Assembly (NCBI GenBank): GCA_963662625.1
Contig: OY759726.1
Coordinates: 736,001-800,000 of the forward strand
DNA: 64,000 nt
Origin: Nitrosopumilus sp.
GTDB taxonomy: Archaea; Thermoproteota; Nitrososphaeria; Nitrososphaerales; Nitrosopumilaceae
Direction: 5' to 3'
Position numbers and translations under genes: made by a program. Under the pieces are notes generated by a model. That model was not told the origin of the DNA. It saw nothing but the letters and a program-made list of their open reading frames with translations, and did no database searches. Below are positions 23,602 to 28,772 of the stretch, one piece after another; the first letter of the stretch is position 1; the number at the start of each line of letters is the position of its first letter.

Positions 23602-24516
23602 TCACAGGGACAGCGAGTCCTTGAGGCCCTTGTACCTGTTCCTGATGGTCACCTCGGTGACGTTCGCTGCCTCGGCTATGTCCCGCTGGGTCTTGTCCTC
23701 GTCGTTCTTCACGCATGACAGGTACAGCGCGGCCGCTGCCAGGCCCATGGGATCCTTGCCGGCCGAGACCTCGTTTTCCTGCGCCTTCTTGAGGACCTTG
23801 ACTGCGTGCCTCTTCGTCTTTTCGGCGATCCCCAGCCTGCTCGCGATCCGTGCCACGCACTGGATCGAGTCGGTCACCGGCATCTTCAGGTCAAGCTCCT
23901 TGACGAGCAGCCTGTAGCACCTCGCGATGTCCTTCCTCTTGATGTTGGCCGCCTGCTCCACGTCCTTGAGGTTTCGCGGGGTCTCGGTGTCGCGGCATGC
24001 CGCGTACAGCGCAGACGCCATCAGCGCGGAGATGGAGCGGCCCCTGACCAGGCCCTTGTCCAGCGCCTTCCTGTATATGTAGGCCGCCTTCTCGATCACG
24101 GCGTCGGATATGGCCAGCTTGTCCTTGAGCCTGTTCAGCTCGCTGAACGCCTGCCTGAAGTTCCTGTCCACAGGCTCGTGCACCTGGCTCCTGCTGTCCC
24201 AGGTGCGCAGCCTCTCTATGGTGCTCTTCATGGACGTGGTGAGCGGCCTTCCCGACGCGTCCTTGTTTGCAGGGTTGATGATCGTCGCCAGCCCCATGTC
24301 GTGTATCGTCAGCGACGTGGGGGCGCCCGCGCGCGCCCTGTCCCCGTGCTCGTCCTGGGTGAACGACCGCCATTCCGGCCCCGACTCTTGCAGCTTTTCG
24401 GTCAGCACGAAGCCGCATTTTGAGCAGAACATCTCCCCTGACTCGTTGTCGGTGACCAGCTTGCCGTGTGCGCACCTCGGGCACATCCCCTTCGTGTTGG
24501 ATGACTTGCCTGCCAT
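23602..24516 (-). CDS. tfb: Transcription initiation factor B
   Basis: CPRC...CSKC, GPEWRSF, HDMGL, GKDPMGLAAA, VTEVTIRNRYK. Confidence 0.96.
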   Translation of the reverse strand: MAGKSSNTKGMCPRCAHGKLVTDNESGEMFCSKCGFVLTEKLQESGPEWRSFTQDEHGDRARAGAPTSLTIHDMGLATIINPANKDASGRPLTTSMKSTIERLRTWDSRSQVHEPVDRNFRQAFSELNRLKDKLAISDAVIEKAAYIYRKALDKGLVRGRSISALMASALYAACRDTETPRNLKDVEQAANIKRKDIARCYRLLVKELDLKMPVTDSIQCVARIASRLGIAEKTKRHAVKVLKKAQENEVSAGKDPMGLAAAALYLSCVKNDEDKTQRDIAEAANVTEVTIRNRYKGLKDSLSL

Positions 24517-25619: not shown

Positions 25620-26438
25620 CTACGCGCCGCTGAACTCGCGCACGATCCTGTCGTGGACGGGGCCGTTGGTGGCAAGGATCCCGTGCCGGTGGTACACGTC
25701 CCTGTTGTTGTACGTGAGTTCGTTTCCCCGCATGTCAGTCATCCTGCCCCCGGCCTCCCCTATTATGCAGTAGGACGCGGCGGAGTCCCATTCCTTCATC
25801 TTCTCGGTGGTGGCCATGTACACCTCCGCCTCCCCGGAGCTGATCTTTCCCACCTTCAGCGAGCTGCCGACGTGGGTAAACTTCCCGATCCCCAGTTTTT
25901 TGATGAGGGCCTTTTCCATTTCCGAGTGGCGGTGCCGGGAGCCCACCGCCCTGCACGCCGCCAGCTCGGAGGTCCCGGTGACGGCGAGCTTCTGCCACCT
26001 CCCGTCCGAATGCATGAACGCCCCGCCGCCCAGCTGTGCGGCATAGACGGTCTTCCCGGCGGGCCAGTTGATCACTCCCAGGACCGGTTTTTTGTTTCTG
26101 ACCAGGGCGATCATCACGGTAAACTCCCCTATCCTGTCAATAAAGTCCAGGGTGCCGTCAAGGGGATCCACTATCCAGACGGCCTCCTCGCCCAGCCTCG
26201 CCTCGTCGTCCCTGTCCTCCTCGGACAGGATCATGTACGGGGTGGCAGACAGTGCCCTCCTGATGACCTCGTTGCTTTTCAGGTCCGCCTCCGTCACGGG
26301 GGTGTCGTCGCTCTTCATGCGGGTCTCGAACTTCTTGCGGTAGACCCCCATGATGGAGTTTCCCGCGTCCACCGAGGCGCCGATTGCCAGGTCCAGCTCA
26401 GCCATGCTGCCTTTAATGGGAATTCCTTGCAACCGCAT
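25620..26438 (-). CDS. cysQ: 3'(2'),5'-bisphosphate nucleotidase (inositol monophosphatase family)
   Basis: PVTEAD, ILSEE, WIVDPLDGT, GSSLK, EWDSAA; start uncertain. Confidence 0.9.
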   Translation of the reverse strand: MRLQGIPIKGSMAELDLAIGASVDAGNSIMGVYRKKFETRMKSDDTPVTEADLKSNEVIRRALSATPYMILSEEDRDDEARLGEEAVWIVDPLDGTLDFIDRIGEFTVMIALVRNKKPVLGVINWPAGKTVYAAQLGGGAFMHSDGRWQKLAVTGTSELAACRAVGSRHRHSEMEKALIKKLGIGKFTHVGSSLKVGKISSGEAEVYMATTEKMKEWDSAASYCIIGEAGGRMTDMRGNELTYNNRDVYHRHGILATNGPVHDRIVREFSGA

Positions 26439-26441
26439 CCC

Positions 26442-26651
26442 CTATGTGGTGAGTTCCGGCCTTAGCGTCCAGACGACGCCCAGGACGACGAACGGGATCG
26501 ACATGATCCCCACGATTCCCAATATTATGTTGAATTGCGACTCTGATACCTGCGGGTTGTCGATTACCCAGGGGAGCGGGAGCGTGACTACCACCCAGAT
26601 CACGCCCAGCAGGATTATCAGCTTGGCCTTCTGCCTCTTCGTATGCATCAT
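26442..26651 (-). CDS. Small two-TM membrane protein
   Basis: Two hydrophobic helices; stop 3 bp before the cysQ ORF; TATA-like TTTAATA upstream. Confidence 0.75.
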   Translation of the reverse strand: MMHTKRQKAKLIILLGVIWVVVTLPLPWVIDNPQVSESQFNIILGIVGIMSIPFVVLGVVWTLRPELTT

Positions 26652-26677
26652 GGCCACTTCCACCGGGCGGTATTAAA

Positions 26678-26783
26678 TTCATGTGAAACCTGTCCCCCGG
26701 GGCTGGCAGGCGGGCCTCCCGGGGCTGGGGGCGCCAAGAATTGCAAAAATCCCGCACGGGGGCCGCGAGATTTCATGTGAAAT
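26678..26783. promoter_or_regulatory. Two copies of the palindromic motif TTCATGTGAAA at divergent promoters
   Basis: Copies at 26678-26688 and 26772-26782 (ATTTCA-TG-TGAAAT), each beside a TATA-like element. Confidence 0.6.
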
Positions 26784-26813
26784 GTTAAATACTTAAAGTT
26801 CCTATACTGATTA

Positions 26814-26952
26814 ATGCCGAAGGATGTAATTCCTATCGACTAAAACTGCGCGGCCCCGCAGAACAACCAAGGGAATCAGGCGTAAAACCGTCCTGACAGG
26901 AGAGGAAATCTCTCAACGTTCTGCAGTGAAGGGGGCTGCGCCTTTAATTTCT
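26814..26952 (+). ncRNA. Candidate structured small RNA beginning with a 9-codon ORF (MPKDVIPID)
   Basis: TATA-like elements upstream; nested stems 26848-57/26932-41, 26858-64/26918-24, 26876-80/26892-96, 26900-04/26910-14; T-rich 3' end. Confidence 0.6.
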
Positions 26953-27381
26953 TAAGAGATCCACCGAGACCGCGCCCCGGACGTTGCCGTTGGGGTCGAT
27001 CTCGATCAAGACGGCCCCGTCGCCCGGGACCGTGACCCGCTTCCGGCCGTCATAGTCCCAGGTGTAGTACTCGGAGATGCCCGTCTGGTGGGCGGTCCCG
27101 ACCAGCTCAAAGTCCTCCGAGAAGCCGAAGGCATCCCCCCGCAGCGTGATGCCCAGCACCCTGGGGCTGTCCCCGTTCGGGACGAATCTAAAGGTGTACT
27201 CTCCCCGGTCCAGGGCCACCCTCTCGGAGTAGACCCCGCCCTCGTACAGGTCCGGGCTTGCCAGCGTTATGTGGAACGCGACGTTGTTGGGCGCTTCCCG
27301 GCCCCCGTCGAGGAGGGCGGCGCCGGCGATGGCGGCGGCAACTGCGGCCGCCGCGGAGGCGGCGGCCAGTTTCTTGTTCAT
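26944..27381 (-). CDS. Membrane-anchored hypothetical protein
   Basis: MNKKLAAA N-terminal anchor, FHITLASP, FRFVPNGDSP. Confidence 0.75.
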   Translation of the reverse strand: MNKKLAAASAAAAVAAAIAGAALLDGGREAPNNVAFHITLASPDLYEGGVYSERVALDRGEYTFRFVPNGDSPRVLGITLRGDAFGFSEDFELVGTAHQTGISEYYTWDYDGRKRVTVPGDGAVLIEIDPNGNVRGAVSVDLLRN

Positions 27382-27602: not shown

Positions 27603-28244
27603 TTGCCAAGTTTTCAAGACAGGTGGATCCATAACCCGAACCCGGGCATGGGCGAGAAGATCAACGACGCCCTGAGGCCAAAGGGGCCGCTGAGGCCCAA
27701 GATCGAGGCGGGCATCAAAAAGCTCCAGGCGCAGATCTCCAAGCTTGACTCCATGCTGGCCAAGCTGAACGAGAGGGACGCCAAGCTGTTCAAGAGGATC
27801 GTGGAAGCCACGCAGTCCCACGACGCGGGCACGAGCAGGGTGCTGTCAAAGGAGCTGGCCGAGGTAAGGAGCGTGACCAAGGTTCTGGGCAACGCCAGGA
27901 TGGCCTTGGAGAAGATCGAGCTCAGGCTGACTACCTACCACGACCTCGGGGACACGGTGGGCACCATAATGCCGACGCTCGGCCTGATGAAGAACCTCAA
28001 GTCGTCCCTGGCAAAGTTCGTGCCCGGAGCCGATCAGGAGATCCACCAGATGGCGGAGATGCTGGGCGGGTTCATGACCGACAGCTTCTCGGGCGACGGA
28101 GCGTTCGGGCTGGACGAGGCGACGAGCTCAGAGTCCGAAAAGATCCTCCGGGAGGCGTCCGCCGTCGCAGAGAGCTCCGCCGGGGAGCGTTTCCCGACTA
28201 CGCCTGCCGACGTCATGGCGTCCACGACCACAAAGTCGCTGTAG
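27603..28244 (+). CDS. cdvB: CdvB/ESCRT-III (Snf7 family) paralogue
   Basis: LNERDAKLFKRIV, LSKELAEVR, LEKIELRLTTYHDLGD, SEKILREAS. Confidence 0.9.
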   Translation: MPSFQDRWIHNPNPGMGEKINDALRPKGPLRPKIEAGIKKLQAQISKLDSMLAKLNERDAKLFKRIVEATQSHDAGTSRVLSKELAEVRSVTKVLGNARMALEKIELRLTTYHDLGDTVGTIMPTLGLMKNLKSSLAKFVPGADQEIHQMAEMLGGFMTDSFSGDGAFGLDEATSSESEKILREASAVAESSAGERFPTTPADVMASTTTKSL

Positions 28245-28247
28245 CCG

Positions 28248-28772
28248 CTAGCCCTCCAGCTTTTCTGACTCCCGTATCCGCCTGATCCTGCTGCCCTCGT
28301 CGTCGACTATCCTGTCGATTCCCACGAGCCTGTCCCTCAGGCTGTTGATAAGCAGGCCTACCTCGTCTGCCTCGTTCTCCACCTGCTGGCGCTTTTCTGC
28401 CAGGTCCGTAATCCCCCTGTTCTCCTCGTTGATGTACTCGCCGACCTTCTGAAGCTTCTCCTTGAGGTTTTTGATGTCCACGGACTCTTCCTCGATCTCT
28501 TTCTCAAGGCCGGTCCTCTTGTCCTTCAGGTTTTTGATCATCAGGCCGACGTGATCGATTGCCTCCTCCAGCTGTGCGCGCTTTCCCATCAGTTCCCCGA
28601 TGCCTATCTGACTCGATGATCCGGGGCCCTCTGGCCCGCCGTCGGCCTCCTCGGGCCGCTCCACGGGCCCCTCCCGGGGGCCCTCTGGCCCGCCGTCGGC
28701 CTCCTCGGACCCGTCCCTTCTCTCCTCTACGGCCTCGCCGCCGTCGCCGTCCTTCTTGAATTTGTCAAACAC
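28248..28772 (-). CDS. Coiled-coil hypothetical protein with an acidic N-terminal duplication
   Basis: IGIGELMGKRAQLEEAID followed by a long heptad region. Confidence 0.75.
   Translation of the reverse strand: MFDKFKKDGDGGEAVEERRDGSEEADGGPEGPREGPVERPEEADGGPEGPGSSSQIGIGELMGKRAQLEEAIDHVGLMIKNLKDKRTGLEKEIEEESVDIKNLKEKLQKVGEYINEENRGITDLAEKRQQVENEADEVGLLINSLRDRLVGIDRIVDDEGSRIRRIRESEKLEG
28623..28708. repeat. 32-bp in-frame direct repeat (EEADGGPEGP twice)
   Basis: GGGGCCCTCTGGCCCGCCGTCGGCCTCCTCGG at 28623-28654 and 28677-28708. Confidence 0.85.

What the first reader, a model, noticed from the sequence alone, without database searches (positions are those of the whole stretch)
26770..26952. Orphan transcription unit: 9-codon ORF followed by a highly structured ~95-nt RNA
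Seen: a low-GC intergenic block with TATA-like elements (TTAAAT/TTAAAG, 26785-26798), an ATG at 26814 (MPKDVIPID, stop at 26843) and a nested fold. The outer stem is GCGCGGCCCC/GGGGCUGCGC (10 bp, one G-U that favours the + strand). The inner stem GCAGAAC/GUUCUGC encloses two hairpins, UCAGG/CCUGA and GAGAG-GAAAU-CUCUC, and a T-rich run follows. The ORF region can form its own hairpin (CGA-AGGA/UCCU-A-UCG), whose AUUCCU strand could instead pair with the junction GGGAAU. The downstream gene is convergent, so this is not a 5' leader of a + strand gene. I recognise no 5S, SRP, RNase P or tRNA signature. Inference: a stand-alone small RNA, or a peptide-plus-RNA switch, of unknown function.
Basis: partly seen in the sequence, partly recalled or inferred. 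Interest (0 to 1): 0.8.

Follow-up and report, generated by a model that had tools for sequence, protein, structure and literature searches.

The report
Conserved small RNA with leaderless mini-ORF
This is a gene for a structured RNA of about 130 bases that is absent from Rfam 15 and from the papers I searched, is shared by nearly all searched ammonia-oxidising archaea of the family Nitrosopumilaceae, and begins with a nine-codon reading frame whose length is conserved but whose peptide is not.

Summary
Window 26814-~26950 (+) is a stand-alone RNA gene. It has a TATA box (TTAAATA, 26785-26791) 29 nt before an ATG, a 9-codon ORF folded into a hairpin (P0), and then a 10-bp stem (P1) stacked on a 7-bp stem (P2). 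P2 closes a three-way junction with two hairpins (P3 variable, P4 GAGAGGAAAUCUCUC). A T-rich run follows.

A covariance model finds it in 138 of 151 family genomes, in 26 of 27 genera and at 1-4 copies each. It finds none in 127 genomes of 19 sister families. 25 of 29 modelled pairs show compensatory changes (shuffles 15.8). G-U outnumbers A-C 105 to 30, which favours the + strand. Rfam 15 has no match. RNase P, SRP and 5S RNAs lie elsewhere in the genome.

The mini-ORF keeps start, length and stop in 130 of 146 distinct copies (TAA, TAG or TGA). The peptide varies freely: 64 peptides, with no third-position signal.

My reading is an RNA that acts as RNA, with a 5' module that ribosomes engage as on a leaderless mRNA and leave 3-5 nt before P1. 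The function is unknown. No expression data could be obtained. 52 of 67 copies abut a convergent, family-restricted membrane-protein gene.

The parts
26785..26791 (+). TATA box TTAAATA of the RNA gene, with a second AT-rich element TTAAAG at 26794-26799
   Evidence: Read. In 103 of the 141 copies examined the exact motif starts 29 nt before the A of the ATG. 29 nt is also the modal spacing of TATA-like motifs before ATGs of long ORFs in this genome.
26814..26843 (+). Leaderless-type mini-ORF: ATG, 8 further codons, TAA (MPKDVIPID)
   Evidence: The frame is 9 codons in 130 of 146 distinct copies (99 TAA, 17 TAG, 14 TGA). The peptide is not conserved. In-frame stops are depleted: 9 against 72 and 32 in the other two frames.
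26816..26840 (+). P0 hairpin inside the mini-ORF. It runs from the G of the ATG to the C before the stop. In this copy it has an internal A-A mismatch and a bulged U.
   Evidence: The 5' 31 nt fold at a mean of -6.7 against -2.1 kcal/mol for shuffles; in 120 of 145 copies at most 5 of 100 shuffles fold as well. All 7 modelled pairs show changes on both sides, but only 69.1% of cells pair in one fixed register.
26844..26847 (+). Linker between the stop codon and P1 (AACU)
   Evidence: Its length is 3, 4 or 5 nt in 45, 78 and 18 of the 144 copies counted (147 copies less 3 without a start at the model position; the other 3 of the 144 gave outlying values).
26848..26857 (+). P1, 5' strand (GCGCGGCCCC)
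   Evidence: Pairs with 26932-26941. 96.7% of cells pair and 9 of 10 pairs have compensatory changes.
26858..26864 (+). P2, 5' strand (GCAGAAC), stacked directly on P1
   Evidence: Pairs with 26918-26924. 94.3% of cells pair and 7 of 7 pairs have compensatory changes.
26865..26875 (+). J2/3, an A-rich junction ending in a G-N-(N)-R-A-A motif (GGGAA here; GGCAA, GGUAA or GUGAA in relatives)
   Evidence: Read from the alignments.
26876..26896 (+). P3 hairpin, variable in sequence and length
   Evidence: A hairpin of at least 5 pairs is predicted in this interval in 147 of 147 copies. Mean energy is -7.9 against -3.6 kcal/mol for shuffles.
26900..26914 (+). P4 hairpin GAGAG-GAAAU-CUCUC, the most conserved element
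   Evidence: 98.3% of cells pair; the second pair covaries A-U, G-C, U-A. This pair has the highest mutual information in the alignment.
26918..26924 (+). P2, 3' strand (GUUCUGC)
26925..26931 (+). Purine-rich bulge (AGUGAAG) on the 3' strand between P2 and P1
   Evidence: It is 4-7 nt long and variable in relatives.
26932..26941 (+). P1, 3' strand (GGGGCUGCGC)
26942..26953 (+). Conserved C followed by a T-rich run (CTTTAATTTCTT), the presumed terminator. It overlaps the last codons and the stop codon of the convergent gene.
   Evidence: A T-rich tail follows P1 in every copy of the alignments, including copies without the convergent gene.
26944..27381 (-). Convergent gene for a 145-aa protein with an N-terminal membrane anchor and a beta-sandwich domain. 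It belongs to a family restricted to the same archaeal family and is the usual tail-to-tail neighbour of the RNA.
   Evidence: 52 of 67 RNA copies have this protein family downstream on the opposite strand. It lies within 160 nt of the RNA in 21 of 23 genomes that hold both. It has no Pfam family. The AlphaFold2 model has pLDDT 85.

Best explanation
Window 26814 to about 26950 (+) is a gene for a stable, structured RNA of about 130 nt that acts as RNA. It belongs to a family I could not find in Rfam 15 or in the papers searched. The family is present in nearly all searched Nitrosopumilaceae.

Shown:
- It has its own promoter-like element and a T-rich end.
- It has a covariation-supported fold: hairpin P0, then P1 stacked on P2, which closes a three-way junction with hairpins P3 and P4.
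- The + strand is the selected strand.
- Its base composition is buffered against genome G+C.
- A 9-codon frame is kept open and closed at the same place in about 90% of copies, while the encoded peptide drifts.

Inferred:
- Transcription starts at or next to the A of the ATG, as for the leaderless mRNAs common in this genome.
- Ribosomes therefore load on the 5'-terminal AUG, read nine codons through P0, and terminate 3-5 nt before P1, so the leading edge of the ribosome reaches the base of P1.
- The mini-ORF is thus a ribosome-engaging module, not a peptide gene. It couples the state of the three-way-junction domain (folding, stability or 3'-end formation) to translation. The conserved stop keeps ribosomes out of that domain.

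What the folded domain binds, and what the RNA regulates, remains unknown.
For: **Gene and family.** BLAST finds the interval in 20 other genomes at up to 86% identity over 181 nt. The neighbouring protein of that same genome is only 49% identical. Model R1 finds the RNA in 138 of 151 family genomes, 110 of 115 high-quality ones and 26 of 27 genera, at 1-4 copies each. Without the three unpublished genomes the count is 135 of 148. R1 finds it in 0 of 127 genomes of 19 sister families. The core pattern occurs in at least 120 stretches of species-representative genomes; the 80 listed titles are almost all Nitrosopumilus, Nitrosarchaeum, Nitrosotenuis, Cenarchaeum or Nitrosopumilaceae.

**Fold.** P3 is present in 147 of 147 copies. 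The top mutual-information pairs are the modelled helices.

**Strand.** 105 G-U cells against 30 A-C cells.

**Promoter.** TTAAATA starts 29 nt before the ATG in 103 of 141 copies. The same offset is the genome-wide peak before ATGs of long ORFs: 22-27 motifs at offset 29 against about 3 at background offsets.

**ORF.**
- 130 of 146 distinct copies have 9 codons, with all three stop codons in use; 8 more have 8 codons.
- On a tree built from the structured domain there are 24 stop-to-stop changes against 10 changes away from the 9-codon state.
- Stop triplets within codons 2-9 number 9 in frame, against 72 and 32 in the other frames. Among representatives below 75% identity, 23 of 28 frames are open against 16.1 expected (P about 0.005).
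- The frame persists where the 5' hairpin differs: the AUGUC...GACAU subgroup and five copies of a divergent subfamily with ATG or GTG, 9 codons and TAA or TGA.
- ATG is replaced by in-frame GTG in two lineages.
- The linker next to the ORF varies by single bases (3, 4 or 5 nt).

**Composition.** RNA G+C is 0.35-0.61, while the flanks range 0.26-0.67.
Against: - No transcript, 5' end, 3' end or ribosome occupancy was observed for any copy, so the start site rests on spacing alone.
- The G of the AUG is paired in P0, which should hinder leaderless initiation.
- The hairpin has a fixed size and the U-R-R triplet after it is conserved. Together they could keep 'start, 9 codons, stop' with no translation at all. 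Zero TGG observed against 1.6 expected from the counts is not significant.
- There is no three-base periodicity: entropy by codon position is 1.07, 1.36 and 1.34.
- The tests treat related copies as partly independent. The tree rests on about 100 columns, and at the 65% identity threshold P is only 0.04.
- Two to four copies lack a start, and two have lost the stop and run to 12 and 15 codons.
- No alternative helices that would make a switch were found.
- That archaeal ribosomes cover about 12-15 nt beyond the P site is recalled knowledge, not tested here.
Confidence: 0.45

Rival explanations
1. It is a purely non-coding structural RNA, for example a scaffold or sponge for an unknown RNA-binding protein or part of an unknown ribonucleoprotein. 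P0 is a protein-binding hairpin of fixed size. The AUG and the U-R-R triplet are sequence motifs, and the 'ORF' is a by-product that is never decoded.
For: - P1, P2, P4 and the junction motifs are strongly conserved.
- P0 folds well above shuffles in 120 of 145 copies.
- The peptide is not conserved and shows no codon periodicity.
- The G of the AUG is paired.
- UAA, UAG and UGA differ only by A-G transitions, and the absence of UGG is not significant (counts).
- Multi-copy, lineage-wide structured small RNAs of unknown function are a common outcome of such scans (general knowledge).
Against: - The frame survives where the hairpin architecture changes.
- In-frame stops are depleted relative to the other two frames.
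- ATG changes to GTG in two lineages.
- Length changes between start and stop are multiples of three (27 or 21 nt), while the adjoining linker varies by single bases.
- The promoter spacing equals that of leaderless mRNAs, so ribosomes should see this AUG.
Confidence: 0.3
2. It is a cis-antisense partner and/or bidirectional terminator for the convergent 145-aa membrane-protein gene. The mRNA of that gene has no T-run until GTTTTAG (the complement of the linker). It must therefore read through the antisense of the structured domain, so the two transcripts would overlap by about 100 nt and control each other's level.
For: - 52 of 67 copies abut this protein family tail to tail, with the CDS stop codon inside the RNA's T-rich run.
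- The two lie within 160 nt in 21 of 23 genomes holding both, and overlap or lie within 10 nt in 19 of them.
- The protein has the same restricted distribution: 22 of 23 family genomes against 0 of 127 others.
- Genus g5 has neither.
- The minus strand also folds and is followed by TTTT.
Against: - Genus g11 has the RNA in 10 of 10 genomes at 2-4 copies, but the protein in 0 of 10.
- G003 and G008 hold both genes far apart.
- 15 of 67 copies have other neighbours, 5 of them co-directional.
- The excess of G-U over A-C shows that the + strand fold is what is selected.
- Simple antisense action or termination does not need a conserved three-way junction or the conserved P4 sequence.
- The TAG and TGA variants break the minus-strand T-run.
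Confidence: 0.12
3. It is a ligand-sensing (riboswitch-like) RNA. The three-way junction is an aptamer whose P1 sits directly before the T-run. Ligand binding, and the ribosome on the mini-ORF, would decide between termination and read-through into the antisense of the convergent gene, or into a co-directional gene in a few copies.
For: - The multi-helix junction has conserved junction nucleotides and a variable peripheral hairpin, as in aptamers.
- P1 lies immediately before the T-run.
- A few copies precede co-directional genes, such as a CorA-like transporter 95 nt downstream (identified by its GMN motif, recalled).
- Riboswitch-controlled antisense RNAs are known in bacteria (recalled).
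Against: - No consistent class of downstream genes appears.
- No alternative pairing was detected.
- There is no match to any riboswitch model in Rfam.
- Hairpin-dependent termination is not established for archaeal RNA polymerase (recalled).
- Most copies have no gene to control on the same strand.
Confidence: 0.07
4. It is an mRNA for a functional 9-residue peptide, and the 3' structure is merely a stabiliser.
For: Start, length and stop are conserved. The N-terminal pattern M-x-K-D/R recurs across subfamilies.
Against: There are 64 different peptides among 104 distinct 9-codon frames. The second codon position is as variable as the third. The 3' domain is far better conserved than the ORF.
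Confidence: 0.03

Closest known systems
Bacterial leader-peptide attenuators (trpL, hisL, ermCL type)
   Same: A very short ORF at the 5' end of a transcript is followed by a stable helix and a U-rich tract. The frame matters more than the peptide's chemistry. A ribosome at the end of the ORF would touch the next helix.
   Different: Most copies have no downstream gene on the same strand. There are no enriched regulatory codons and no competing anti-terminator helix. The organism is an archaeon, the start is leaderless, and the region after the ORF is a conserved three-way junction, not a simple terminator.
Dual-function small RNAs (SgrS/SgrT, RNAIII/hld, SR1/SR1P; small-ORF-bearing sRNAs of Methanosarcina)
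   Same: A small RNA carries both a short ORF and a structured RNA part.
   Different: In those cases the peptide is conserved and functional. Here the peptide drifts and only start, length and stop are kept.
tmRNA
   Same: A short ORF that ends in a stop codon is joined to a conserved structured domain that meets the ribosome. Archaea have no known tmRNA.
   Different: ARAGORN finds no tmRNA. The 5' and 3' ends do not pair into a tRNA-like domain. The ORF starts at a 5'-terminal AUG and not at an internal resume codon. The tag-like peptide is not conserved.
Cis-encoded 3'-3' antisense sRNAs (GadY/gadX) and riboswitch-controlled antisense RNAs (AspocR)
   Same: The RNA has its own promoter and is convergent with a protein gene, with overlapping 3' ends.
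   Different: The RNA persists without that gene in a whole genus, and additional copies lie elsewhere. It has a conserved intramolecular fold on its own strand.
Lineage-specific abundant archaeal ncRNAs of unknown function, e.g. Tan1 of marine group II Euryarchaeota (PMC5069720; passages read)
   Same: A clade-restricted structured RNA of a marine planktonic archaeal group with no assigned function.
   Different: There is no sequence relationship. Tan1 is 229 nt and was found from transcripts, whereas this RNA was found from DNA alone and has a conserved mini-ORF.

Membership tests
Any Rfam 15 family | Score at or above the family's gathering threshold, or at least a suggestive E-value | tested here: not met
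   There are 0 matches at gathering score in the 64-kb window. At E<=10 over 26600-27100 the only match is sR30 at 26613-26657 (-), 10.6 bits against a gathering score of 38, and it lies outside the element. There are 0 matches at E<=1 for 14 homologous copies.
tRNA / tmRNA | Cloverleaf or tRNA-like domain with a tag ORF, as recognised by ARAGORN | tested here: not met
   ARAGORN finds 0 genes in the window.
RNase P RNA, SRP RNA, 5S rRNA (divergent copy) | The genome would lack a canonical copy, and the element would match the model | tested here: not met
   Canonical copies lie elsewhere in the genome: RNase P RNA at 190 bits, SRP RNA at 105.9 bits and 5S rRNA at 75.1 bits. None matches here.
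Box C/D sRNA | C box RUGAUGA near the 5' end and D box CUGA near the 3' end, forming a K-turn | tested here: not met
   Reading the RNA shows no RUGAUGA. The only CUGA (26893-26896) is the 3' strand of P3. No C/D model of Rfam matches the element.
H/ACA sRNA | Hairpin with a two-sided pseudouridylation pocket and an ACA box about 14 nt 3' of it | tested here: not met
   The P1/P2 interruption is one-sided, with 7 nt on the 3' strand and none on the 5' strand. P1 is followed by C and a T-run, not by ACA.
Y RNA (Ro60-bound) | A Ro60 (TROVE) protein encoded in the genome; a stem formed by the 5' and 3' ends | tested here: not met
   There is no TROVE match in the genome, while the control genomes Deinococcus and Bacteroides match. 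The 5' end is not paired with the 3' end.
Leader-peptide transcription attenuator | Short leader ORF | tested here: met
   A 9-codon ORF is present in 130 of 146 distinct copies.
Leader-peptide transcription attenuator | Mutually exclusive terminator and anti-terminator helices | tested here: not met
No competing helix appears in the mutual-information scan.
Leader-peptide transcription attenuator | Controlled structural genes downstream on the same strand | tested here: not met
   59 of 67 copies have a gene on the opposite strand as the next downstream ORF. 5 have a co-directional one, of unrelated kinds, and 3 loci end before any downstream ORF.
Riboswitch | Conserved multi-helix aptamer-like junction | tested here: met
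   The three-way junction has covarying helices and conserved junction bases.
Riboswitch | Position in the 5' UTR of a functionally coherent set of genes | tested here: not met
Riboswitch | Specific ligand binding | not testable with these tools
   This needs in-line or SHAPE probing.
Dual-function (peptide-coding) sRNA | Peptide sequence under purifying selection | tested here: not met
   There are 64 peptides among 104 distinct frames. Entropy by codon position is 1.07, 1.36 and 1.34.
Cis-antisense sRNA of the convergent gene | Obligatory linkage with the target gene | tested here: inconclusive
   The two are linked in 52 of 67 copies and in 21 of 23 genomes. Genus g11, however, has the RNA in 10 of 10 genomes and the protein in 0 of 10. 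Transcript overlap could not be tested.

The most novel reading that the evidence does not exclude
This is a new kind of ribosome-engaging RNA device in archaea. A 5'-terminal start codon and a fixed nine-codon 'landing strip' load a ribosome without a leader and park it, at a conserved stop codon, against a conserved three-way-junction RNA. The peptide is irrelevant. The RNA would either sense translational capacity, with its fold, stability or 3' end depending on whether a ribosome sits at the foot of P1. Or it would act on the ribosome itself by holding or marking terminating ribosomes. This would occur in the slow-growing ammonia oxidisers that are among the most abundant cells in the ocean.
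Probability: 0.25. Interest if true: 0.85.

Novelty: new variant of a known kind. Interest (0 to 1): 0.68.

Why it matters
Nitrosopumilaceae carry out much of marine nitrification, yet almost nothing is known about their RNA-based regulation, and they have no genetic system. A structured RNA present in 26 of 27 sampled genera, often in several copies, and more conserved than its protein-coding neighbours, is likely to be an important and probably abundant cellular component.

The family is absent from Rfam 15, so current annotation pipelines miss it. The covariance model built here could annotate it across hundreds of genomes and metatranscriptomes.

The conserved start, length and stop of a mini-ORF with a free-drifting peptide, right at a leaderless 5' end, gives a concrete and testable case of coupling between translation and the function of a non-coding RNA in archaea. 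No leader-peptide-type mechanism is established there (recalled).

Tried and rejected
- **Expression.** I did not lay reads, because contigs of DNA runs cannot show a transcript.
- **Known RNAs.** Rfam, ARAGORN and the Ro60 test for a Y RNA were all negative.
It was rejected.
- **Pseudoknots and tertiary pairs.** The mutual-information scan gave only the known helices at the top. Weaker pairs between J2/3 and the bulge (columns 97-183) may be phylogenetic.
- **Wider distribution.** A second model from 100 copies gave only marginal hits outside the family, in 5 of 127 genomes at E 0.04-0.6. The two best (G192 and G209, one genus) have P2-, junction- and P4-like parts and an ATG followed by 3 codons, but no P1. 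I leave these as undecided.
- **Convergent protein.** It has no Pfam family and is named only 'hypothetical protein'. The model is confident, but Foldseek against the PDB gave no match at E<=0.001, only weak jelly-roll or carbohydrate-binding-like resemblances.
- **Downstream genes of other copies.** No common theme emerged.
- **Peptide-level selection.** Rejected.
- **UGG-absence test.** Not significant (0 observed, 1.6 expected).
- **Literature.** Eight full-text searches, and passages read in PMC5069720, PMC2996960 and PMC13475601, found no description of this RNA. Supplementary tables were closed. The thaumarchaeal start-site tables of PMC5069720 could list it.
- **Trans-target prediction.** I considered it and dropped it as too noisy without annotation.
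- **Complex prediction.** Not used, because no protein partner is proposed.
Full report
**What is in the sequence**

The interval sits between two minus-strand genes: a 73-aa ORF at 26442-26663, and a 145-aa ORF at 26944-27381 (176 aa if counted from an upstream GTG). On the + strand it reads as follows.

- TTAAATA at 26785-26791.
- ATG at 26814, then eight further codons and TAA at 26841-26843.
- A 4-nt linker.
- P1 (26848-26857 with 26932-26941, 10 bp, one G-U).
- P2 (26858-26864 with 26918-26924), stacked directly on P1.
- An A-rich junction.
- Hairpin P3 (26876-26896).
- Hairpin P4 (GAGAG-GAAAU-CUCUC, 26900-26914).
- A 7-nt purine bulge on the 3' strand.
- A conserved C and a T-rich run from 26943.

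The T-run overlaps the last codons and the stop codon of the convergent gene. The ORF folds into its own hairpin, P0, from the G of the ATG to the C before the stop.

**Is it more than chance, and which strand?**

The + strand folds at -44.0 kcal/mol (z -3.94; 0 of 200 shuffles as good). The minus strand folds nearly as well (z -3.61), so energy does not settle the strand.

Comparison with relatives does.

- BLAST with 201 nt found significant matches in 20 other genomes of the same family, at up to 86% identity over 181 nt. The matches begin at the TATA box and end at the T-run. The neighbouring protein of the best-matching genome is only 49% identical.
- On an independent MAFFT alignment of 21 copies, 93.4% of cells pair. 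12 pairs have changes on both sides against 5.0 +/- 1.5 in shuffles (0 of 500 as high; slid controls 3-6).
- On 99 distinct copies aligned to the model, 25 of 29 pairs have changes on both sides against 15.8 +/- 1.6 (0 of 500; slid 9-16). P1 pairs in 96.7% of cells, P2 in 94.3%, P4 in 98.3% and P0 in 69.1%. That alignment leans towards the model.
- P3 could not be aligned, but a hairpin of at least 5 pairs is predicted at its place in 147 of 147 copies.
- Across 67 copies the modelled pairs hold 105 G-U cells against 30 A-C cells.

With the promoter on one side and the T-run on the other, the + strand is the functional one.

**Not a known RNA**

- Rfam 15 gives nothing at gathering score in the whole window.
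- Nothing on the element appears at E<=10, and nothing at E<=1 for 14 homologues.
- ARAGORN finds no tRNA or tmRNA.
- RNase P RNA, SRP RNA and 5S rRNA are found elsewhere in the genome.
- There is no C box, no ACA box and no Ro60 gene.
- Eight full-text searches and three papers read in passages gave no description. Supplements were closed.

**Distribution**

The window's genome has one copy. Model R1 finds the RNA in 138 of 151 genomes of the family, 110 of 115 high-quality ones and 26 of 27 genera, with 1-4 matches per genome. These counts include the unpublished genomes G100, G115 and G116, all three with matches; without them the count is 135 of 148.

One genus of very small genomes (g5, 0.8-0.9 Mb) has none in 4. 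In a sample of the order, the family scores 23 of 23 and 19 other families score 0 of 127.

A second model from 100 copies adds a divergent third subfamily inside the family. Outside the family it gives only marginal hits, in 5 of 127 genomes at E 0.04-0.6.

An exact pattern of the core occurs in at least 120 stretches of species-representative genomes. The 80 listed titles are Nitrosopumilus, Nitrosarchaeum, Nitrosotenuis, Cenarchaeum and unnamed Nitrosopumilaceae or Thaumarchaeota, with three odd labels.

The RNA's G+C stays at 0.35-0.61 while its flanks range from 0.26 to 0.67. Here it is 0.50 in a genome of 63% G+C.

**The mini-ORF**

Of 146 distinct copies:

| Frame | Copies |
|---|---|
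| 9 codons | 130 (99 TAA, 17 TAG, 14 TGA) |
| 8 codons | 8 |
| 1, 6, 12 or 15 codons | 1 each |
| No ATG at the place | 4 (2 carry an in-frame GTG) |

Several further observations bear on whether the frame is kept.

- The five copies of the divergent subfamily again have ATG or GTG, 9 codons and TAA or TGA, although their P0 and P4 differ.
- A subgroup with a different, shorter 5' hairpin (AUGUC...GACAU) also keeps 9 codons.
- The linker after the stop varies by single bases (3, 4 or 5 nt in 45, 78 and 18 copies). Observed start-to-stop lengths are 30, 27 or 21 nt.
- Stop triplets within codons 2-9 number 9 in frame, against 72 and 32 in the other frames. Among representatives below 75% identity, 23 of 28 frames are open against 16.1 expected from shuffles (P about 0.005). 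At the 65% threshold it is 16 of 21 against 11.6 (P 0.04).
- On a tree of the structured domain there are at least 24 changes among the three stop codons.

The peptide itself is not conserved. There are 64 peptides among 104 distinct frames, and entropy by codon position is 1.07, 1.36 and 1.34.

There are caveats. A hairpin of fixed size flanked by conserved AUG and U-R-R motifs could give much of this pattern without translation. Related copies are not independent. The G of the AUG is paired.

**Promoter and start**

TTAAATA starts exactly 29 nt before the A of the ATG in 103 of 141 copies. In this genome, TATA-like motifs before the ATGs of long ORFs peak at the same offset: 22-27 at 29 and 78 within 28-32, against about 3 per offset elsewhere. 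Leaderless mRNAs are therefore common here, and this RNA is built like one. That archaeal start sites lie about 26 nt from the centre of the TATA box is recalled knowledge.

**Context**

- 52 of 67 copies have the same protein family immediately downstream on the other strand.
- In 21 of 23 genomes that hold both, the two lie within 160 nt.
- The protein has a membrane anchor and a beta-sandwich (pLDDT 85). It has no Pfam family, no informative name and only weak fold matches.
- The protein has the same restricted distribution: 22 of 23 family genomes against 0 of 127 others. In the family sample it is found in 129 of 151 genomes, or 127 of 148 without the unpublished ones.
- Genus g11 has the RNA in 10 of 10 genomes and the protein in 0 of 10. 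Extra RNA copies sit beside unrelated genes.

The RNA therefore does not depend on that gene.

**How it most likely works**

What is shown is a conserved, independently promoted, structured + strand RNA with a conserved short frame. What I infer is the following.

- The transcript starts at the AUG.
- Ribosomes load on it as on other leaderless RNAs.
- They read through P0 and terminate 3-5 nt before P1, touching its base.
- The stop codon keeps them out of the three-way-junction domain.

On this reading the ORF is a ribosome-engaging module that couples the RNA's state to translation (confidence 0.45). The rivals are a purely non-coding scaffold (0.30), a cis-antisense partner or terminator of the convergent gene (0.12), a ligand sensor (0.07) and a peptide gene (0.03). 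No alternative helices for a switch were found. No transcript data could be obtained, and the target of the folded domain is unknown.

**Verdict**

This is a real RNA family that I could not find in Rfam 15 or in the papers searched, present across almost all of a globally abundant archaeal family. It has an unusual conserved leaderless mini-ORF. I rate it a new variant of a known kind, with interest 0.68.

Noticed in passing
window 26944-27381 (-): A 145-aa protein with an N-terminal membrane anchor and a beta-sandwich domain, with invariant motifs FxFVPNGxSP, YxTW and NPNG. It has no Pfam family and is restricted to the same archaeal family as the RNA. It is absent from genera g5 and g11. 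Its function is unknown.
   Followed up: partly
whole genome G000: TATA-like motifs peak sharply 28-32 nt (mode 29) before the ATGs of long ORFs. A large share of mRNAs in this 63% G+C genome therefore appear to be leaderless.
   Followed up: partly
L182-L186 (G018, G005, G087, G102, G063): A third, divergent subfamily of the RNA, scoring 31-40 bits. It has the same promoter spacing, the 9-codon frame and P1. P2 and P4 are replaced by a 10-bp hairpin (GGGUGAGGAG...), and the 3' tail ends in CCUCU.
   Followed up: partly
L180, L181 (G209, G192; another family of the order): Marginal matches (21 bits) with P2-like, junction-like (AAGGUAU) and P4-like (GGAGGUAUUCUC) parts and an ATG followed by 3 codons, but without P1. 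They may be distant relatives outside the family.
   Followed up: partly
window 26690-26770: A G+C-rich block between the upstream gene and the RNA promoter. It holds a direct repeat of CCCGGGGCTGG and a terminator-like hairpin on the minus strand (26767-26755). The A+T-rich relatives have nothing like it at this place.
   Followed up: no
window 26613-26657 (-): A weak resemblance to the C/D-box RNA sR30 (10.6 bits against a gathering score of 38; E 4.5) inside the 73-aa ORF. It is most likely chance.
   Followed up: no
L002:1806-2582 and 30 other loci: In 31 of 67 copies the divergent upstream neighbour of the RNA is a short-chain dehydrogenase (adh_short_C2, E 4e-71). In the window that place is taken by a 73-aa membrane ORF and an inositol-monophosphatase-family gene (25620-26438), which is the upstream neighbour in only 3 other loci.
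   Followed up: partly
window 23602-24516 (-), 27603-28244 (+), 28248-28772 (-): A TFIIB-type transcription factor gene and two coiled-coil proteins without a Pfam family above cut-off lie near the element.
   Followed up: no
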